Positions 4,871-23,604 of a stretch of 24,000 nt of DNA are shown piece after piece. This DNA is from Bacillus rubiinfantis (GTDB lineage Bacteria > Bacillota > Bacilli > Bacillales > Cytobacillaceae), in assembly GCA_000752035.1 (NCBI GenBank), contig CCFE01000011.1:397099-421098 (forward strand), read 5' to 3'. The notes beneath the pieces are model-generated. The model did no database searches. It was not told the origin of the DNA and saw only the letters and a list, made by a program, of their open reading frames with translations. The position numbers were made by a program, and so were the translations under genes. How positions within the stretch are numbered: the first letter of the stretch is position 1; every line of letters begins with the position of its first letter.

Positions 4871-5065
4871 TTACCACCCATGGTGATGATGATGCCATGG
4901 ATGATAATGGTGATGATGATAACCATAACCACCGTAACCACCATAGAATGGATAAGAGAACCCTCCGTAACCACCAAATCCGCCATAGCCAAAAGGACTA
5001 CCAAATCCCATCATCGGATAACCGAAAGAACCGTAGAATGGAGGCATACCAACACCTGCTTTCAT
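4871..5065 (-). CDS. Gly/Tyr/Phe-rich miniprotein with a C-terminal His cluster (function unknown; possible spore-coat-like or metal-binding peptide)
   Basis: 64-aa ORF MKAGVGMPPFYGSFGYP...GGYGGYGYHHHHYHPWHHHHHGW, bracketed by a terminator. The RBS is weak: an alternative start at the internal MPPFYG Met has AGGTG 5 nt upstream. The mirror ORFs on the + strand are artefacts of low complexity. Confidence 0.5.
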   Translation of the reverse strand: MKAGVGMPPFYGSFGYPMMGFGSPFGYGGFGGYGGFSYPFYGGYGGYGYHHHHYHPWHHHHHGW

Positions 5066-5142: not shown

Positions 5143-6981
5143 TTACCGTATTGCGTGAGAGCTGACATCTGTTGCCTTCACCCATGCAATCGTTCTTGTT
5201 CCACGGAAGTTTTTTGCTAATAAATAATAGGTGCCACCAGCGTACTTTGCCTGTCGCTTGATATAATACGATTTATTTGTATAAGTTTTTCCAGCCTTAA
5301 AGGAGCTGTTTGCACCGAGTTTCTTATAAAGTCTTGCACTGCTCTTCTTCACTTTTCCGACGCGACTTGTCGCACTTTCAACCGTCTTTTTCAAATTACT
5401 GGAGCTCATCCAAATTGTTTTTCCTGCAAGTTTCCCGCGATACCATAGGGTACTGCCGACTTTTTCTGTCAAATTAATCGTGAATTGGCGATACTTATAT
5501 TTTGACAGTGATGACTGAACTACGTCCTTTGTGCCTCCATATGGCTTGCTATATGTGCTACCTTTTCCGGTGAAGTAGTATTTCTTTGTTTTATGATCTA
5601 CACTCACATGTGACGAGCTGATTAAGTTCGCAGAGTTCACCCAACCGATTACTCCTCTAGTACTGCTAGGCTGGGTACTCAGTAAATAATAAGTCCGTCC
5701 ATTTACAGCAGCTTTGCGCTTAATGTAATAAACTTTACCGGTATAATTTGTACCTGCTTGAATTTTTCCTGTCGTGCTGCCAATTGTTTTATAGATGGTC
5801 ACTTTGCTACTGCTAATTTTCCCCAAACGACTCGTCGCTTTTTCAATCTTTGTACCTGTGTTAGCTGCATTAATCCAAATCGTTTTACCGTTGAAGCTGC
5901 CTTGATACCATACATCATTGCCTACCTTTTCAGTCTTAGTTACTGTGAACTTGCGATCTTGATAGGAGGTAAGCGAACTATTAATGATATCCTTTTTGCC
6001 ACCCCAGGCGACTTGATAGGTACTGCCTTTTCCGGATAGATAAACCGTTTTTGTTTTTTGACTGACTACTGAATTTGGGTAGGAAGTGACATCAGCTGCT
6101 TTAATCCAGCCAATTACCCCATTTACGCTGCTTGCTTGATTGCTTAATAAGTAATAAGGCTGTCCACCAATTAATGCTACTTTTTTGATAAAAAGAGTCC
6201 TATTCGTATTGTTGGAGCCAGCCTTGAATGCTGTTTTCTCATCATCGTACTTGCGGTATATCAAGGCGCTGCTGCTGTGAATTTGTCCTAAGCGATTTGT
6301 GTTTGATCTTTTATCAGGCAGCTGCTCATATTTGTACTTTACTAGTTGGACAAACTGTGTCCAGCTGTAGCCCCAAGCGCTAAAATAACTATGAGGGTCC
6401 TGATGAGTGGTGTGGCCTAAATATTTAGTTACCGCTTTATGAGACCATAATGTACCTGTTCCTGTTTTTTCGGCATCGATTAACGGCAAATTATAACGAT
6501 ATAGGGTGGCAGCTATGTAATTCGCGTAGTTATTAATCGATTTAGCAAATTGAGAAAAGGTTTTCTCGGACTTTTTCACTCTGACTAACTCAATATGGAC
6601 AAAGCGTTGATTTGCGGCGGAACCAGCGCCCCATGCGCCGTAGTTTGGTGAGTGAATTTCAATTACGCGTGAACTGTCAGCAAATGCATGAACAAAAGCT
6701 TTGCGGTAGTTTCTCGACATATACGAGATTTCACCGGTAATAGTTGAGTTATTATTGGCGGTTTCATGGGCAACCACCCCCTCAACTTGCCCGTATCCAT
6801 GGCGGTAGGGAAATTTGGGCAAATAACTTATGTATTTATTTTCTACTTTTGCAGAAACAAGTTTCTTCGACAAAATATAATCATTTACCTTCGAACTCGT
6901 TGCCGCCTCTGCCCTCATCGGCAGAATTAAACCAAAACCAACCAACACTACTGAAAGAACTAAGATGCCAAACTTCTTCAT
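5143..6981 (-). CDS. Secreted N-acetylmuramoyl-L-alanine amidase (amidase_2/PGRP-type) with six C-terminal GW/SH3b-like wall-binding modules
   Basis: Signal peptide MKKFGILVLSVVLVGFGLILPMRAEA. Catalytic region reads VEGVVAHETANNNSTI ... RFVHIELV. Three tandem pairs of roughly 75-aa modules follow, ending in G(V/T)IGW(I/V)xxxD and (T/D)(L/V)WY(R/Q)G...GKTIW. Start moved to ATG 6981..6979 (GGAGAGG RBS); the track start at 7008 lacks one. Confidence 0.85.
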   Translation of the reverse strand: MKKFGILVLSVVLVGFGLILPMRAEAATSSKVNDYILSKKLVSAKVENKYISYLPKFPYRHGYGQVEGVVAHETANNNSTITGEISYMSRNYRKAFVHAFADSSRVIEIHSPNYGAWGAGSAANQRFVHIELVRVKKSEKTFSQFAKSINNYANYIAATLYRYNLPLIDAEKTGTGTLWSHKAVTKYLGHTTHQDPHSYFSAWGYSWTQFVQLVKYKYEQLPDKRSNTNRLGQIHSSSALIYRKYDDEKTAFKAGSNNTNRTLFIKKVALIGGQPYYLLSNQASSVNGVIGWIKAADVTSYPNSVVSQKTKTVYLSGKGSTYQVAWGGKKDIINSSLTSYQDRKFTVTKTEKVGNDVWYQGSFNGKTIWINAANTGTKIEKATSRLGKISSSKVTIYKTIGSTTGKIQAGTNYTGKVYYIKRKAAVNGRTYYLLSTQPSSTRGVIGWVNSANLISSSHVSVDHKTKKYYFTGKGSTYSKPYGGTKDVVQSSLSKYKYRQFTINLTEKVGSTLWYRGKLAGKTIWMSSSNLKKTVESATSRVGKVKKSSARLYKKLGANSSFKAGKTYTNKSYYIKRQAKYAGGTYYLLAKNFRGTRTIAWVKATDVSSHAIR

Positions 6982-7206
6982 ATTCCTCTCCCAACTTACT
7001 AGAATCATAGATAAAAATTATTATACTACTAAATTGACACTCACGAACATGTGAATTTCTACACATTTATGTCCACCCCATATGGACAAATGTCCACGAA
7101 CGGTGCCAGGCACCAATATCGACAGCAATATCTATTTGCATATTGTAAATATTGGTAACTACTAATATAATATTGTTAGTAATTTATTATAGAGGGAGAT
7201 TGAGAG

Positions 7207-7485
7207 ATGAAGCGTATAGTTAAGATTGGTTTATCTGTTGGACTTGTTTTGGGGATTGGGTTTTCGGCTGAGAGTTCGTTACAGGTGGTTGATGCTAAGA
7301 CGAAGATTGTTTCGTTTAAGAATTGTAAGGAATTGAATAAGAAGTACAAAGGTGGTGTGGCAATATCCTCCAAGGTTAAAAATAGAGGAGGCAAAACTAA
7401 GTACAAGCCGTTTGTTTCAAAAGCATTATATAATGCCAACAAAAGTAGAGACCGTGATAAAGACGGCATTGCCTGCGAACGTTAA
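7207..7485 (+). CDS. Small secreted Excalibur (calcium-binding) domain protein
   Basis: Signal peptide, then a C-terminal DRDKDGIACE that matches the Excalibur DxDxDGxxCE loop. GAGGGAG RBS lies upstream of the ATG. Confidence 0.8.
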   Translation: MKRIVKIGLSVGLVLGIGFSAESSLQVVDAKTKIVSFKNCKELNKKYKGGVAISSKVKNRGGKTKYKPFVSKALYNANKSRDRDKDGIACER

Positions 7486-7559
7486 CTGGTAAGCCATATG
7501 GGAAATCTGTTCCAAGCAACGCGGGCGTAACGGCCAAACTTATTGGTAAATATGCCAGA

Positions 7560-8377
7560 GTTGTCCATTTGCGGCGGGCTATTGGACAACTTTTTCGAAA
7601 ATACGCCAGAGTTGTCCATTTGCGGCGGGCTATTGGACATCTTTTTCAAAAAAACACGAAAGTTGTCCATTTGCGGAGTTCTATTGGACAACTTTTTCCG
7701 AAAAACACGAAAGTTGTCCATTTGCGGGGTTCTATTGGACAACTTTTTCCGAAAAACACGAAAGTTGTCCATTTGCGGGGGGCTATTGGACAACTTTTTC
7801 GAAAATACACCATAGTTGTCCATTTGCGGGGTTCTATCGGACAACTTTTTCCGAAATACGCCAGAGTTGTCCATTTGCGGAGGGCTATTGGACAACTTTT
7901 TCGAAAATACACCATAGTTGTCCATTTGCGGGGGGCTATTGGACAACTTTTTCAAAAATACGCCAGAGTTGTCCATTTGCGGGGGGCTATTGGACAACTT
8001 TTTCGAAAATACGCCAGAGTTGTCCATTTGCGGAGTTCTATTGGACAACTTTTTCCGAAAAGCGCCAGAGTTGTCCATTTGCGGCGGGCTATTGGACAAC
8101 TTTTTCCGAAAAACACCAGAGTTGTCCATTTGCGGAGGGCTATTGGACAAGTTTTTCCGAAAAACACGAAAGTTGTCCATTTGCGGAGGGCTATTGGACA
8201 ACTTTTTCCGAAAAACACCAGAGTTGTCCATTTGCGGAGGGCTATTGGACAGCTTTTTCGAAAATACGCCAGAGTTGTCCATTTGCGGAGGGCTATTGGA
8301 CAACTTTTTCAAAAATACGCCAGAGTTGTCCATTAGCGGGGGGGCTATTGGACAGCTTTTTCGAAAATACGCCACAC
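7560..8377. repeat. Tandem array of 16 copies of a 51-bp unit containing an 8-bp-stem inverted repeat
   Basis: GTTGTCCA starts fall at 7560, 7611, 7662 and so on to 8325, all exactly 51 bp apart. The unit is GTTGTCCA-N15-TGGACAAC-TTTTTC(C)GAAAAWACRCCAGA. Long ORFs in four of six frames are a consequence of the repeat. Confidence 0.95.
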
Positions 8378-8435
8378 CTATCCCATAGCTAGGCCCCCGC
8401 TATGAGGGGCAATTTCCCCCCAAAAAAAATAATTG

Positions 8436-9086
8436 CTACTTTAGCAGGTCTATTACTTGATTTAAGTCATCGGCAATCGCATAGGCATTGGTTTTCATCT
8501 CATCATTTGGAGCAATGATGTCTGGAACGATGATACATTTGATACCGGCCCCGACAGCAGCTCGCAAGCCGTTAAGTGAATCTTCCAACACGAGTGCGGC
8601 GTCGGGTGCTACGTTGCCCCGTTTGCAGGCCTCGAGGAATATATCGGGATTCGGCTTCCCGTTCTCCACCTCTTCCCCGCTGACATAAAAATCAAAGCGA
8701 TCAGTAAAACCGGCAAGCGATAAATAGTGGTTAATCACTGCTTTGCTGCTTGACGAGGCGATACATTTTTTTATCCCGTTCTGGTCAAGAGCGGTCAATA
8801 AATTATCAGTTCCCGGCTTGACCATGATCCCTTCTTCCAGCAAAATGTTATCAAACTCCTGTCGATAATCAGCAACAATTGATGGAAACGAGAATTCCGG
8901 CCCATAAATTTCTTTCATAATGACATCACATTCATGATCGGCCACACCGATGATTGGCTTATAATGTTCCATTGGGAAGTCGTGCCCAAGCCTTACCATC
9001 ACCCGTCTCATCGCCTCATATGATGGCCGCTCAGTATCAAATAATAACCCATCCATGTCAAAAATGGCTAACTTTACCTCTTTCAC
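8436..9086 (-). CDS. HAD-IA family hydrolase (sugar-phosphatase / beta-phosphoglucomutase-like)
   Basis: HAD motif I is AIFDMDGLLFDTE. Motifs III/IV are GKPNPDIF ... LVLEDSLNGLRAAVGAG. GTG start with a GGAGGGGTG RBS. Confidence 0.85.
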   Translation of the reverse strand: MKEVKLAIFDMDGLLFDTERPSYEAMRRVMVRLGHDFPMEHYKPIIGVADHECDVIMKEIYGPEFSFPSIVADYRQEFDNILLEEGIMVKPGTDNLLTALDQNGIKKCIASSSSKAVINHYLSLAGFTDRFDFYVSGEEVENGKPNPDIFLEACKRGNVAPDAALVLEDSLNGLRAAVGAGIKCIIVPDIIAPNDEMKTNAYAIADDLNQVIDLLK

Positions 9087-10275: not shown

Positions 10276-11358
10276 TCAAACTTTGCTTTTTAACACTTTA
10301 TCGAAGTCGTCGAAGATACGGACGCTTAAATCAATTCCTCTTCCGCTGGCAATTCGGTAGGAAAGGATTTGCAGCGGAATCGCCAGCAAGAGCGGGCTCA
10401 ACCATTCATCAGCATCCACATCTAGGCTCAAGGTCTTGACATCCACAGCATCCGCACCCGTAGAAAGCGAGAAACAATGGGTTGTGTACGCTCCTAAATA
10501 GTCCTTTAACATTTCTGTGCGAATCGCCAGTGGGCTGTTTGTTTTGATAAAAATAAGTCCATAGGAACTGTTCACTTCTAAATACGGTCCATGCATAAAA
10601 GCTTCAAGTTCAAAGCCCTGTGTCGGTACCCGTACGGTTTCAGTAAATTTCGTTTCGCCCTCTTTCGCTGTCCCTACGGTCGGGCCGTAGCCAATCAGCG
10701 CAAAACGGGGAATGGTAGTTAGTTCAGCGGCATGCGCCGTATAAAAACTCTCTGTTTTTTCGATAATTGCCGGGATTTGCTCGATTAAGCGCGTCAGTTT
10801 TGCTGTTTCTGCAGCACCTGCATCAGTTGTTAATTCTCCGAGAGCGGTCCCAGCCGCGATGGCCATTAACATCGAAGTCAGCACCGTCGCGGTAAACCCT
10901 TTCGTGACAAAGCCAACTTTTTCAACACCGCAGCCGATATCGATTACTGAATCGGCATGCGCCGTAATTGGGCTGTCAAGGTTAGAAGTTAGTACAGCAG
11001 TTGCTACTTTCCCCTCAGCATGAACCTTCTTCACGGCTTCGATTGTCGAATAGCTATGGCCGCTTTGCGAAACGGCGAGAACAAAATCAATCGACGGCTT
11101 TACTTTTTCATAATGAACAAAGTTAAATGGCTCTTGAATTTCGATCGACACACCCGCCGTTTTTTCCATATAGTATTTCGCACTTAACATGGCATTAGCA
11201 CTGGACCCTGTTGCCAGTACGAGCCAATTCTTTGGCTGCTTTTCACGCATTAATTCCGTGAAAGCGGCCAGCCGATCAGCTGCCTGCGCAATGATATCAT
11301 GGCAAACCTGGGGCTCTTCATGGATATACGTCATCATTGTTTCTTGCACTCTCATCAC
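10276..11358 (-). CDS. Double-SIS-domain protein (GlmS C-terminal / AgaS / GfrE-like deglycase or ketose-aldose isomerase)
   Basis: 360 aa. Contains TYIHEEPQV, LVLATGSSANA and LAVSQSGHSYST motifs typical of SIS isomerising domains. The start is uncertain: GTG/ATG at 11358..11353 or ATGATG at 11337..11332. Confidence 0.8.
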   Translation of the reverse strand: MMRVQETMMTYIHEEPQVCHDIIAQAADRLAAFTELMREKQPKNWLVLATGSSANAMLSAKYYMEKTAGVSIEIQEPFNFVHYEKVKPSIDFVLAVSQSGHSYSTIEAVKKVHAEGKVATAVLTSNLDSPITAHADSVIDIGCGVEKVGFVTKGFTATVLTSMLMAIAAGTALGELTTDAGAAETAKLTRLIEQIPAIIEKTESFYTAHAAELTTIPRFALIGYGPTVGTAKEGETKFTETVRVPTQGFELEAFMHGPYLEVNSSYGLIFIKTNSPLAIRTEMLKDYLGAYTTHCFSLSTGADAVDVKTLSLDVDADEWLSPLLLAIPLQILSYRIASGRGIDLSVRIFDDFDKVLKSKV

Positions 11359-16958: not shown

Positions 16959-17047
16959 AACATCACCCCCTAGAAAAGTAAAATCAGATAGATTAGTACC
17001 ATCTTAACATAAGTCATATAATGTTATAGGTTGAATTTTTGAAAATG

Positions 17048-17084
17048 CAAAAAGTGCCAGGCACCGTAAGTTGGTCCTGACACT
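17048..17084 (-). terminator. Candidate rho-independent terminator downstream (minus sense) of the ATTAGCGAAT array
   Basis: Minus strand reads AGUGUCAGG (17084..17076), a 14-nt loop, then CCUGGCACU (17061..17053), giving a 9-bp stem with one G-U pair, followed by U4-5. This would place the whole repeat array inside the 3' UTR of the dioxygenase transcript. Confidence 0.45.
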
Positions 17085-17135
17085 TGTTATTGGCTTAGAA
17101 AATTTTTTGCGAATTAAGTGGTTTTATGTGGATTT

Positions 17136-17412
17136 ATTAGCGGTTTTGAGCAGTTTATGAGCGAATTTAAACAGGATATTAGCGAATTTTAGAGTTTATT
17201 AGCGAATCCAAGCAGGATATTAGCGAATTTTAGAGTTTATTAGCGAATCCTAACAGGATATTAGCGAATTTATCAGTTTATTAGCGAATTCAAACAGGAT
17301 ATTAGCGAATTTTAGAGTTTATTAGCGAATCCAAGCAGGATATTAGCGAATTTATCAGTTTATTAGCGAATCCTAACAGGATATTAGCGAATTTCCAAAT
17401 ATATTAGCGAAT
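17136..17412 (+). repeat. Direct-repeat array of ATTAGCGAAT: 14 copies with alternating 21/20-bp spacing, giving a 41-bp higher-order unit
   Basis: Cores start at 17136, 17157 (ATGAGCGAAT), 17178, 17198, 17219, 17239, 17260, 17280, 17301, 17321, 17342, 17362, 17383 and 17403. The array ends 17 bp from the stop of the minus-strand dioxygenase gene. Confidence 0.9.
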
Positions 17413-17428
17413 CGAAAAAAGCGCCAGT

Positions 17429-23246: not shown

Positions 23247-23567
23247 AAAAAACCACGCCCCTATCAATTTTTAGAATCGATAAGGACGTGGTTGGAATCA
23301 CGTGGTACCACCTTAATTTACTGACTGCTCACGCAAATCAGCCTCTGCAAGTACGGAGCTCTCATTAGTTATGGCTCTTTATACTGTGGTATGGATAACG
23401 AGTACCAAATCTCGACGGAACCTACTTCAATCAGTAAATCGGGATATCTCCCTAGATTGTTTCAGCACGCAGCTCCGAGGCCATTGTTCGGATTGATATT
23501 TTTGCTTCTTTTCAGCTACCGAAGCTCTCTGTGAAAAAATAACACAATCGTACTTTCCCTCTTCAAC
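23247..23567 (-). promoter_or_regulatory. T-box leader (tRNA-sensing riboswitch) with terminator; probable Met (AUG) specifier
   Basis: Read on the minus strand. Stem I carries an AGTA box, the AGAGAG bulge and a distal loop GGTAGCTGAAAA. The specifier loop is CGAACA-ATG-G (ATG = complement 23482..23484), closed by CCTC pairing with GAGG. The T-box sequence AATTAAGGTGGTACCACG is at 23318..23301. The terminator AACCACGTCCTTATC ... GATAGGGGCGTGGTT plus T6 is at 23295..23247. Confidence 0.85.
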
Positions 23568-23604
23568 GCTTTATAACTTTTTATTGAGTTTGAAAATTTA
23601 CTCA

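What the first reader, a model, noticed from the sequence alone, without database searches (positions are those of the whole stretch)
7536..8377. Sixteen strictly in-phase copies of a 51-bp hairpin unit (about 0.8 kb) with cassette-like variation
Units start at 7560, 7611, 7662, 7713, 7764, 7815, 7866, 7917, 7968, 8019, 8070, 8121, 8172, 8223, 8274 and 8325. They are exactly 51 bp apart, with no indel until one extra G in the last copy. A degenerate half unit precedes at about 7536.

Every unit has three parts:
- GTTGTCCA-N15-TGGACAAC, an 8-bp inverted repeat with loop TTTGCGGNGKKCTAT
- a TTTTT run merging into a second small palindrome (TTTTCGAAAA or TTTTC-C-GAAAA)
- a short tail

The differences between units are not scattered noise. 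They sit in a few cassettes: loop base 16 is C, A or G; the loop has GGGC or GTTC; and the main tail variants are CGAAAATACGCCAGA, CCGAAAAACACGAAA, CGAAAATACACCATA and CAAAAATACGCCAGA. These cassettes occur in different combinations in different units. That pattern looks like recombination or gene conversion under a strict length constraint rather than simple slippage.

There are no unique spacers or cas genes, so it is not CRISPR. There is no transposase and there are no terminal inverted repeats, so it is not an IS or MITE.

51 bp is close to five helical turns, so all sites face one side of the DNA. On the + strand, each hairpin plus U5 also resembles a weak intrinsic terminator, which gives a 16-fold stack between convergent genes. 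I cannot assign it to any repeat family I know.
Basis: seen in the sequence. Interest (0 to 1): 0.75.

Follow-up and report, generated by a model that had tools for sequence, protein, structure and literature searches.

The report
REP-like 51-bp hairpin repeat array
A 0.8-kb stretch between two ordinary genes of Bacillus rubiinfantis holds 16 head-to-tail copies of a 51-bp non-coding hairpin unit, and this unit belongs to a repeat family found in several bacterial groups that, in gut Bacteroidales, surrounds the gene of a transposase-like enzyme.

Summary
There are 16 in-phase 51-bp units at 7560-8377, each with GTTGTCCA-N15-TGGACAAC, lying between convergent genes for an Excalibur-domain protein and a HAD hydrolase.

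What it is not:
- Not coding: no homolog among 5.8 billion proteins, and no frame shows a synonymous excess.
- Not CRISPR.
- Not an Rfam family.
- Not found in the plasmid or phage collections.

It is also not an orphan. Homologous arrays of period 51-52 bp, with core TTGTCCAATAG-N9-CTATTGGACAA, lie just after stop codons of unrelated genes in Ureibacillus manganicus, Phocicoccus schoeneichii and two soil contigs.

Arrays and doublets with the same TTGTCCA/TGGACAA stem foot and a 50-51 bp period are abundant in metagenomes. In Bacteroidales they directly flank a single-copy ~300-aa gene. That gene's predicted fold matches Y1 HUH transposases, including the E. coli REP-associated enzyme. Three further family members, chosen from the protein search and not by their DNA, also carry 50-51-bp hairpin arrays, with stems that co-vary with the protein clade.

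Best reading (confidence about 0.5): a REP/BIME-like hairpin repeat cluster expanded and homogenised by recombination. Any terminator or mRNA-stabiliser effect would be a by-product. The cognate enzyme was not found for Bacillus because I could not search the genome.

It is a new variant of a known kind and of moderate interest.

The parts
7509..7559 (.). Degenerate leading unit (GTTCCAAGCAACGCGGGCG...CTTATTGGTAAATATGCCAGA), starting 24 nt after the stop codon of the Excalibur-domain gene
   Evidence: It keeps the ...ATATGCCAGA tail and parts of the arms. The TRF array start is at 7537.
7560..8324 (.). Fifteen exactly in-phase 51-bp units. Each is GTTGTCCA + 15-nt loop + TGGACAAC + 20-nt spacer. 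The spacer contains TTTTCGAAAA or TTTTCCGAAAA.
   Evidence: As RNA, the intra-unit hairpin folds at -15.0 kcal/mol and the inter-unit hairpin (TGGACAAC-N20-GTTGTCCA) at -14.9 kcal/mol.
8325..8377 (.). Last unit, with one extra G in the loop, a T>A change and a G in the right arm. The array ends here, 59 nt before the stop codon of the HAD gene.
7560..7590 (.). Representative hairpin core (31 bp). The conserved stem foot TTGTCCA/TGGACAA is shared with the Ureibacillus, Phocicoccus, soil-contig, Lachnospiraceae and Bacteroidales repeats.
7207..7485 (+). Upstream flanking gene: 92-aa Excalibur-domain protein. It has no terminator-like site of its own before the array.
8436..9086 (-). Flanking gene on the other side: HAD hydrolase, 100% identical to the Bacillus rubiinfantis protein. 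It is the last gene of a LevR / mannose-type PTS / SIS / SIS / HAD cluster.
7066..7115 (-). Single dispersed element. Its reverse complement reads GGTGCCTGGCACC-GTTC-GTGGACATTTGTCCATATGGGGTGGACA. It shares the core TTGTCCATnTGsGGnGG with the 51-bp unit and may be the kind of element from which the array grew.
   Evidence: The alignment gives 14 of 17 matches, and 7 of 500 shuffles score as well. Related copies, including a 64-bp x 2.3 tandem, occur in the Neobacillus relative.

Best explanation
The array is a non-coding cluster of REP/BIME-like hairpin repeats. I call the group the 'TTGTCCA-foot' hairpin repeat family.

What is shown:
- Each 51-bp unit carries an imperfect palindrome whose outer 7-8 bp (GTTGTCCA/TGGACAAC) are sequence-conserved.
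- The inner stem only has to stay self-complementary.
- The centre-to-centre distance between hairpins is held at 50-52 bp.

What is inferred:
- The unit was seeded from a dispersed intergenic element of this family.
- It was then expanded and kept homogeneous by unequal recombination and gene conversion between units. This gives the mosaic 'cassettes' and the strict length.
- By analogy with the Bacteroidales relatives, the conserved stem foot is the recognition element of a trans-acting Y1 HUH (REP-associated-transposase-like) protein. That protein would bind the hairpin in single-stranded DNA, for instance at the replication fork.
- Whether Bacillus rubiinfantis encodes such a protein is unknown.
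- Because the array lies in the 3' region of two convergent genes, it is probably transcribed at its edges. Its stable hairpins (on the + strand followed by U5) may act as a leaky terminator or 3' exonuclease block, as REPs do. I treat that as a side effect and not as the reason the sequence is conserved.
For: 1. Not a protein.
- The 297-aa ORF across the array has no homolog with E<=0.001 among 5.8 billion proteins.
- Three frames are fully open and two more carry only 2-3 stops, simply because 51 = 17 codons.
- No frame has a synonymous excess: 6-20 synonymous against 37-49 non-synonymous changed codons.

2. A family in Bacillales.
- Ureibacillus manganicus: 52 bp x 7.9.
- Phocicoccus schoeneichii: 51 bp x 6.6.
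- Two soil contigs with 52-bp units in 155-157-bp higher-order repeats.
- All have TTGTCCAAT..ATTGGACAA arms 15-16 nt apart.
- All begin 3-90 nt after a stop codon of unrelated housekeeping genes.

3. A wider family.
Most are alternating TTGTCCA/TGGACAA sites spaced 24+26, 25+26 or 24+27 bp.
- At least 8 contigs of one assembly, each with different flanks, carry a 51-bp-spaced doublet.

4. A hairpin is under selection.
- 112 of 162 distinct units have at least 3 of 5 further complementary pairs inside the 7-mer, against about 16 expected.
- The inner stems have different sequences: TGAA, ATAG, ATAA, CCGA and others.

5. Link to an enzyme.
- A ~300-330-aa gene is flanked by these arrays in all 10 held loci that carry it, in two clades only 33% identical.
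- It has an N-H-x-H and Y-x-x-x-N signature.
- 21 of 30 members weakly hit Pfam Y1_Tnp, and there is a weak NCBIfam REP_Tyr_transpos hit.
- Its AlphaFold model (pLDDT 85) matches ISDra2 and IS608 TnpA and the E. coli REP-associated transposase 4er8 as top PDB folds.

6. Unbiased check.
- Three family members were chosen from the protein search alone. All have 50-51-bp hairpin arrays directly upstream, and one also downstream.
- Their stems have co-varied with the protein clade.

7. The array is young and dynamic.
- The nearest relative, Neobacillus sp. OS1-32, has the same genes without the array.
- A related 64-bp repeat differs in copy number (3 versus 2) between samples of that species.
- 22 of 36 site pairs fail the four-gamete test.

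8. Precedent: REP clusters reiterated in tandem, and rayt genes flanked by BIMEs, are described in PMC3733652 and PMC2817692.
Against: - No HUH gene lies in the window or in the 8-kb Bacillales loci. I could not search the B. rubiinfantis genome.
- REP-associated transposases are not reported for Bacilli in the surveys I read.
- The Bacteroidales arrays have inner gaps of 17-18 nt, not 15. I found them by searching for the same 7-mer, so part of the resemblance is ascertainment.
- Canonical REP features are missing. There is no GT(A/G)G head. Units are head-to-tail. The arrays on the two sides of the HUH gene are in direct, not inverted, orientation.
- Only one array and one weakly related single element occur in 24 kb. 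High copy number in this genome is therefore unproven.
Confidence: 0.5

Rival explanations
1. A neutral minisatellite. A local palindromic sequence was amplified by slippage and unequal crossing-over. No trans-acting factor and no function are involved, and the similarity to other arrays reflects only common descent from a dispersed element.
For: - The array is absent from the syntenic locus of the nearest relative.
- The units are mosaic.
- A related repeat varies in copy number between strains.
- The array lies at a synteny breakpoint.
- No partner gene was found nearby.
Against: - The same 7-11-bp stem foot and a 51-52-bp period are kept across three Bacillales families whose loops and spacers have diverged beyond recognition.
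- The first 15 nt of the unit are invariant in 15 copies while other columns vary freely.
- Inner-stem complementarity is maintained through sequence change.
- All of this indicates constraint, not drift.
Confidence: 0.2
2. An RNA-level element. The array would be transcribed from one or both convergent genes. Its 16 hairpins (+ strand: hairpin plus U5) would act as a multi-step intrinsic terminator and 3' exonuclease barrier, preventing convergent read-through and stabilising the upstream mRNAs.
For: - Neither flanking gene has a terminator-like site of its own before the array.
- The + strand hairpin folds at -15 kcal/mol and is followed by UUUUUC.
- Three-to-four-unit stretches fold better than shuffles: z = -4.7 on the + strand and -4.0 on the - strand.
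- All five Bacillales arrays begin just after a stop codon.
- REPs are reported to have such roles (PMC2817692, PMC3733652).
Against: - The U-run is not conserved in the other arrays.
- A 15-nt loop makes a poor terminator, and the scan does not call it.
- The stem sequence is conserved rather than merely co-varying.
- One or two hairpins would be enough for this job.
- There is no Rfam match even at E=10.
- Array orientation relative to neighbouring genes is not consistent.
Confidence: 0.15
3. A duplex-DNA protein-binding array. It could be a sink or organiser for DnaA, since TTGTCCA resembles the DnaA box TTATCCACA. It could also be a sopC-like centromere or a nucleoid-organising site bound by a dimeric protein at each inverted repeat.
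For: - 32 half-sites lie at a fixed phase.
- The half-site is conserved in sequence across taxa.
- In the wider family the commonest extension is TTGTCCAC, which is one or two mismatches from the DnaA-box consensus TT[AT]TNCACA quoted in PMC6006769.
- The anatomy resembles F-plasmid sopC: tandem 43-bp units, each with an inverted repeat (from my own knowledge, not tested here).
Against: - In the Bacillales arrays the 9-mer is TTGTCCATT or TTGTCCAAT, which has three mismatches to the DnaA box, including the CACA end.
- There are no partition genes in the window, and no plasmid or phage match.
- Inner-stem complementarity is not needed for a duplex dimer site.
- A dispersed, multi-locus distribution does not suit a centromere.
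Confidence: 0.1
4. A real gene for a protein built of 17-residue repeats, for example the 297-aa ORF at 7482..8375 on the - strand.
For: - Long ORFs cross the array.
- There are faint Pfam hits (DUF2197, DUF7747) with no individually significant stretch.
Against: - There is no homolog among 5.8 billion proteins.
- Three frames are fully open and two more carry only 2-3 stops, as expected for any 51-bp period.
- Non-synonymous changes dominate in every frame.
- The ORF has a GTG start with no convincing ribosome-binding site.
- The homologous arrays have periods of 52 bp, which are not multiples of three.
Confidence: 0.02

Closest known systems
REP / BIME clusters of Proteobacteria with their REP-associated tyrosine transposases (RAYT, TnpA-REP; PMC2817692, PMC3333891, PMC3733652, PMC6006769)
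   Same: - Short extragenic imperfect palindromes placed after genes.
- Regularly spaced clusters, some reiterated in tandem.
- Palindromy preserved by compensatory change.
- In the Bacteroidales relatives, a single-copy Y1 HUH gene sits among housekeeping genes and is flanked by its own repeats, and repeat and protein co-vary.
   Different: - No GT(A/G)G head.
- Units are head-to-tail, with a strict 50-52-bp period.
- The arrays on the two sides of the gene are direct, not inverted.
- The protein is ~300 aa with an extra C-terminal helical domain and falls below Pfam and NCBIfam thresholds.
- The hosts are Bacillales, Clostridia and Bacteroidales.
- No cognate gene has been shown for the Bacillus array.
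Mycobacterial interspersed repetitive units (MIRU-VNTR) and pneumococcal BOX elements (tandemly variable boxB module); comparison from my own knowledge
   Same: - Tandem units of 45-77 bp in intergenic regions.
- Dispersed at several loci.
- Unit number is variable.
- Open reading frames occur as a by-product of unit length.
   Different: - No sequence relationship.
- MIRUs are not built around a conserved hairpin foot.
- BOX has flanking boxA and boxC modules, which are absent here.
F-plasmid sopC-type centromere (12 x 43-bp units, each with a 7-bp inverted repeat); comparison from my own knowledge
   Same: - Tandem units in strict phase.
- Each unit carries one inverted repeat.
   Different: - No adjacent partition genes.
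- The setting is chromosomal, between housekeeping genes.
- The family is dispersed over many loci.
Intrinsic (Rho-independent) terminators
   Same: On the + strand each unit is a G+C-containing hairpin followed by T5.
   Different: - The loop is 15 nt.
- The unit is repeated 16-fold.
- The T-run is not conserved in homologous arrays.
- The stem sequence, not only its structure, is conserved.

Membership tests
REP / BIME | Short imperfect palindrome able to form a stem-loop, with palindromy kept by compensatory changes | tested here: met
   - 8-bp stem plus partial inner pairs, -15 kcal/mol.
- Across the family, 112 of 162 distinct units keep at least 3 of 5 extra pairs using different sequences.
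REP / BIME | Extragenic position, typically 3' of genes or between co-directional genes | tested here: met
   All five Bacillales arrays start 3-90 nt after a stop codon.
REP / BIME | Conserved GT(A/G)G (or CGTC) tetranucleotide head at the foot of the hairpin | tested here: not met
   The foot is GTTG in the window, Ureibacillus and Phocicoccus arrays, and variable (C/A/T-TTG) elsewhere.
REP / BIME | High copy number (>100) dispersed through the genome | not testable with these tools
   - The B. rubiinfantis genome could not be searched. The 24-kb window holds one array and one weakly related single element.
- In one metagenome, at least 8 contigs with different flanks carry the Bacteroidales-type doublet.
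REP / BIME | BIME: regularly spaced REPs in alternating orientation | tested here: inconclusive
   Spacing is strictly regular and the 8-mers alternate in orientation. However, the hairpin units themselves, as judged by loops and spacers, are head-to-tail.
REP / BIME with RAYT | A cognate Y1 HUH (RAYT) gene flanked by the repeats | tested here: inconclusive
   - Met for the Bacteroidales relatives: arrays flank the gene in 10 of 10 held loci and in 3 of 3 independently fetched loci, and the fold matches 4er8, 2xo6 and 2a6o. The flanking arrays are direct, not inverted.
- Not found in the window or in L004, L007, L019 or L042.
CRISPR array | Unique spacers between identical repeats, usually with cas genes and a leader | tested here: not met
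   The 20-nt 'spacers' are near-identical variants of one sequence. No cas domain is present in the window.
Rfam RNA families | A covariance-model match | tested here: not met
   No match at gathering score. Only chance-level hits at E up to 10.
sopC-like partition centromere | Tandem inverted-repeat-bearing units next to parA/parB-type genes on a replicon that needs partitioning | tested here: not met
   No par genes in 24 kb. No plasmid or phage similarity.
DnaA-box cluster | Several 9-mers within about one mismatch of TTATCCACA | tested here: not met
   The window 9-mers TTGTCCATT and (on the other arm) TTGTCCAAT have 3 mismatches each. Some non-Bacillales hits (L006, L112, L002) do look like true DnaA boxes.
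Protein-coding tandem repeat | One frame under purifying selection, with homologous proteins elsewhere | tested here: not met
   Homologous arrays have a 52-bp period.

The most novel reading that the evidence does not exclude
TTGTCCA-foot hairpins spaced 50-52 bp apart would form a cross-phylum REP-like system (Bacteroidales, Lachnospiraceae, Bacillales). It would be run by an undescribed ~300-aa Y1 HUH enzyme family with its own C-terminal DNA-binding domain. That domain would read a DnaA-box-like foot. The fixed ~51-bp spacing would reflect how the enzyme, or a replication-fork partner, measures and copies the units. The Bacillus array would then be the first REP/BIME-type cluster recognised in Bacilli, either with a still-unidentified partner or as a relic that now interacts with DnaA.
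Probability: 0.3. Interest if true: 0.75.

Novelty: new variant of a known kind. Interest (0 to 1): 0.55.

Why it matters
REP/BIME elements and their domesticated transposases are well studied in Proteobacteria. The surveys I read do not describe them in Bacilli.

This work points to a family with three linked features:
- a sequence-conserved stem foot;
- a strictly kept ~51-bp period;
- in Bacteroidales, a flanking HUH gene that current domain libraries miss.

If the link holds, it would extend the REP-RAYT paradigm to Gram-positive and gut bacteria. It would also give a concrete protein-DNA pair to test.

There are practical consequences too:
- Such arrays break short-read assemblies. Two soil contigs end inside them.
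- They produce spurious ORFs.
- They could serve as strain-typing VNTR loci.
- Here they coincide with synteny breakpoints.

Tried and rejected
- **Exact-protein look-ups.** Three flanking proteins were looked up to fetch other strains. None is on record, so variation between strains could not be measured.
- **Rfam.** Nothing at gathering score or at E=10.
- **BLASTN against plasmids and phages.** Six units (306 bp, 7560-7865) gave no match.
- **Array ORF as a protein query.** No hits, so the coding reading was rejected.
- **Literature search for the motifs as strings.** Only primer-type chance hits.
- **SpoIIID box (GGACAAG) and other Bacillus operator consensus sequences, recalled from memory.** Rejected. 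Phocicoccus does not form spores (from my own knowledge, not tested), and no consensus fits.
- **Resolvase res-site half-site (TGTCYNNTA).** Considered and dropped. It rests on memory only, and 16 tandem sites with no recombinase nearby do not fit.
- **Sigma-54 and ECF-sigma promoter readings of the spacer.** They do not fit by inspection.
- **DnaA domain IV similarity of the HUH protein's C-terminal domain.**
  - hhalign probability is below 1%.
  - The fragment model was too poor to use (pLDDT 47).
  - The question is left open.
- **My own error.** In the metagenome pattern I set the inner gap to 16-18 instead of the window's 15.
- **False positives of the pattern.** The Parabeggiatoa hit (L008) and L076 appear to be coding repeats. 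L048 and L111 were not examined further. L002, L006 and L112 look like genuine DnaA-box clusters. All are set aside.
Full report
**1. Observation**

Tandem Repeats Finder gives 7537..8374 with period 51, 16.4 copies, 90% matches and 1% indels. Fifteen units, from 7560 to 8274, match GTTGTCCATTTGCGGNGNNCTATTGGACAAC with at most one mismatch, against none in shuffles. The sixteenth unit (8325) carries one extra G. A degenerate unit at 7509-7559 precedes the array.

The first 15 bases of the unit never vary in 15 copies. Variation sits in 13 columns. Of 36 pairs of informative columns, 22 show all four allele combinations. The two main spacer forms (TTTTTCGAAAATAC and TTTTTCCGAAAAAC) differ by what looks like a compensated indel pair, which keeps the length at 51.

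The 8-mers can pair within a unit (loop 15, -15.0 kcal/mol as RNA). They can also pair between neighbouring units (TGGACAAC-N20-GTTGTCCA, -14.9 kcal/mol).

**2. Setting**

The HAD hydrolase next to the array is 100% identical to a Bacillus rubiinfantis protein. The window is ordinary chromosome. It holds an amidase, an Excalibur-domain protein (7207..7485 +), the array, and then, on the minus strand, the HAD, SIS, SIS, mannose-type PTS and LevR-like activator genes. Transporter genes and a T-box leader follow. The window contains no cas, transposase, recombinase or partition gene.

The nearest relative on record is Neobacillus sp. OS1-32 (79% identity for HAD). It has the same genes but no array. 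There the glyoxalase gene lies between HAD and Excalibur. In the window its ortholog (74% identity) lies on the far side of the LevR-like gene, next to a second, unrelated tandem array. Both arrays therefore sit at the two breakpoints of one rearrangement.

**3. What it is not**

- *Not coding.* The 297-aa ORF across the array has no homolog among 5.8 billion proteins. Three frames are fully open and two more carry only 2-3 stops, simply because 51 is 17 codons. No frame shows a synonymous excess. Homologous arrays have 52-bp periods.
- *Not CRISPR.* The 'spacers' are variants of one sequence.
- *Not an Rfam family*.
- *Not plasmid or phage DNA*.
- *Not called as terminators.* The simple terminator scan does not call the units. 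It also finds no separate terminator for either convergent gene.

**4. Relatives in Bacillales**

One scan of species-representative genomes, using three consecutive 8-mers, found true tandem arrays in two species:
- Ureibacillus manganicus: 52 bp x 7.9, between two co-directional dioxygenase-like genes.
- Phocicoccus schoeneichii: 51 bp x 6.6, between an ArsC-like gene and gcvH.

Two soil-metagenome contigs carry 52-bp units arranged in 155-157-bp higher-order repeats. They lie after a MenC-like gene and after a regulator gene.

All of these share TTGTCCAAT(A)...(T)ATTGGACAA arms 15-16 nt apart and a 51-52-bp period. Their loops and spacers differ almost completely. The window's minus strand aligns best with the Ureibacillus plus strand (GTTGTCCAATAnCC; GGCGTA in the spacer). 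All five arrays begin 3-90 nt after a stop codon.

The T-run that follows the hairpin in the window is not conserved in the other arrays.

**5. A much larger family**

By my mistake its inner gap was set to 16-18 nt instead of 15. Most hits are runs of alternating TTGTCCA/TGGACAA sites spaced 24+26, 25+26 or 24+27 bp, with up to 13 half-sites.

Three further points:
- In one assembly, at least eight contigs with unrelated flanks carry a doublet TTGTCCACnAAA-N7-TTTnGTGGACAA with 51-bp spacing.
- Lachnospiraceae-type contigs carry ~240-bp dispersed elements made of eight such half-sites, in varied housekeeping contexts.
- Inside the conserved 7-mer, 112 of 162 distinct units keep at least three of the next five positions complementary, against about 16 expected. 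They do so with different sequences.

So the foot is conserved in sequence, and the rest of the stem is conserved only in complementarity. This pattern is expected for a hairpin read by an enzyme in single-stranded nucleic acid. It is not expected for a duplex dimer site.

Some hits are unrelated. L008 and L076 appear to be coding repeats; L048 and L111 were not examined further. L002, L006 and L112 look like probable DnaA-box clusters.

**6. The associated gene**

In locus L097 a 329-aa gene is flanked on both sides by arrays. tblastn and a family HMM find homologs only next to arrays. These are L065, L085, L098 and L105 at 93% identity, and a 33%-identical clade in L030, L068, L072, L116 and L132.

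The evidence on what the protein is:
- It has no Pfam domain above threshold, but it carries N-H-x-H and Y-x-x-x-N motifs.
- 21 of 30 members weakly match Pfam Y1_Tnp.
- One member weakly matches NCBIfam REP_Tyr_transpos over the whole profile.
- An AlphaFold model (pLDDT 85) has Y1 HUH transposases as its best PDB matches. These are ISDra2, IS608, IS200 and the E. coli REP-associated transposase bound to a REP hairpin (4er8), with probability about 1.0 and target TM-score 0.5-0.6.

The family is large: 1951 clusters at 50% identity. Where a source names it, the name is 'hypothetical protein' or 'transposase' from Bacteroidales.

As a check free of my DNA-pattern bias, I fetched three members chosen from the protein search. 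Each is a single gene among housekeeping genes. Each has a 50-51-bp hairpin array directly upstream, and one also has an array downstream. The stems have changed with the protein clade: TTTGTCCGG/CCGGACAAA in two loci and AACTTCCAGAAA/TTTCTGGAAGTT in the third.

This is the arrangement described for rayt genes flanked by BIMEs (PMC2817692), with one difference. Here the flanking arrays are in direct orientation.

**7. Interpretation**

*Shown:*
- The array is a non-coding, recombining cluster of hairpin units.
- It belongs to a multi-genus Bacillales family.
- It shares its stem foot and period with a family linked to a Y1 HUH gene in Bacteroidales.

*Inferred:*
- The Bacillus array is the same kind of element, a REP/BIME-like cluster.
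- It was seeded from a dispersed element. A candidate relative lies at 7066-7115, although the similarity is only modest.
- It was expanded by unequal recombination.
- Its conserved foot is read by a trans-acting factor.

*Not shown:*
- That B. rubiinfantis encodes such a factor. I could not search the genome.

The surveys I read do not report REP-associated transposases in Bacilli.

A terminator or mRNA-stabiliser effect on the two convergent genes is plausible in this particular locus, but it does not explain the family-wide conservation.

DnaA binding is a live minority idea. TTGTCCAC is the commonest form of the foot in the wider family, and HUH proteins with DnaA-like C-terminal domains are known (PMC6006769). 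Against this, the Bacillus 9-mers have three mismatches to the DnaA box. My test of a DnaA-like C-terminal domain was negative or uninformative.

**8. Verdict**

- Observation: confirmed.
- Best explanation: a REP/BIME-like hairpin repeat cluster, confidence about 0.5.
- Rivals: neutral minisatellite 0.2; RNA terminator or stabiliser 0.15; duplex protein-binding array 0.1; coding 0.02.
- Novelty: a new variant of a known kind.
- Interest: 0.55. This rests mainly on the cross-phylum family and its unannotated HUH partner, not on this single array.

Noticed in passing
window 17135-17417: A second, unrelated tandem array of period 41 bp (123-bp higher order). It holds about 14 copies of TATTAGCGAAT spaced about every 20.5 bp. 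It starts 12 nt after the stop codon of the glyoxalase gene and lies about 180 nt upstream of the LevR-like activator gene. No function is assigned.
   Followed up: partly
window 7486-8435 and 16959-17428, compared with L011 6651-9058: In Neobacillus sp. OS1-32 the gene order is HAD, glyoxalase, metallophosphatase, Excalibur. In the window the orthologous glyoxalase gene (74% identity) has moved to the other side of the PTS/LevR cluster, and the metallophosphatase gene is absent. The two tandem arrays occupy exactly the two breakpoints.
   Followed up: partly
window 7102-7114 and 17054-17064; L011 9151, 10956, 11020, 11083: A 13-bp palindrome, GGTGCC(W)GRCACC, recurs in intergenic regions of both species. 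In L011 it is part of a 64-bp unit repeated 2.3 times (10954-11096). Copy number differs (3 versus 2) between samples of the same species (L011 versus L012, L015 and L016).
   Followed up: partly
L097 10992-11981 (-); also L065 1190-2137, L068 249-1151, L137 3001-3906, L138 3001-3933, L139 3001-3891: A large Bacteroidales protein family (about 1950 clusters at 50% identity), ~300 aa, with no Pfam domain above threshold. It has a Y1 HUH transposase fold plus a C-terminal helical domain. It occurs as a single gene among housekeeping genes and is always next to 50-51-bp hairpin arrays. One database representative (P0123) has NPLH instead of NHLH at the HUH motif.
   Followed up: yes
L043 ~6299-6400, L052 ~37-140, L093 ~1489-1600: In Bacteroidales contigs the 51-bp-spaced hairpin doublets often end a few tens of bases before a possible ATG start codon (read by eye; no ORF call was made). 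This suggests they may lie in promoters or 5' leaders there, unlike the 3' position seen in Bacillales.
   Followed up: no
L001 138-378 and L003 3950-4189 (Lachnospiraceae MAG); L021, L031, L053, L062, L075, L095, L096, L118, L124: Dispersed elements of about 240 bp built from eight alternating TGGACAA/TTGTCCA half-sites, with a fixed spacing pattern (29, 42 or 63, 29-31, 23, 29-31, 42 or 63, 29). They lie in unrelated housekeeping contexts. No associated gene was found in the DNA held.
   Followed up: partly
window 23279-23575 (-): A T-box leader (Rfam RF00230, 111.5 bits) lies upstream of the SAM hydroxide adenosyltransferase / ECF-transporter gene cluster.
   Followed up: no
window 4871-5065 (-): A 64-aa ORF rich in Gly, Tyr, Phe and His (…GGFGGYGGFSYPFYGGYGGYGYHHHHYHPWHHHHHGW). 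It lies just downstream of the amidase gene on the same strand. It was not examined further.
   Followed up: no
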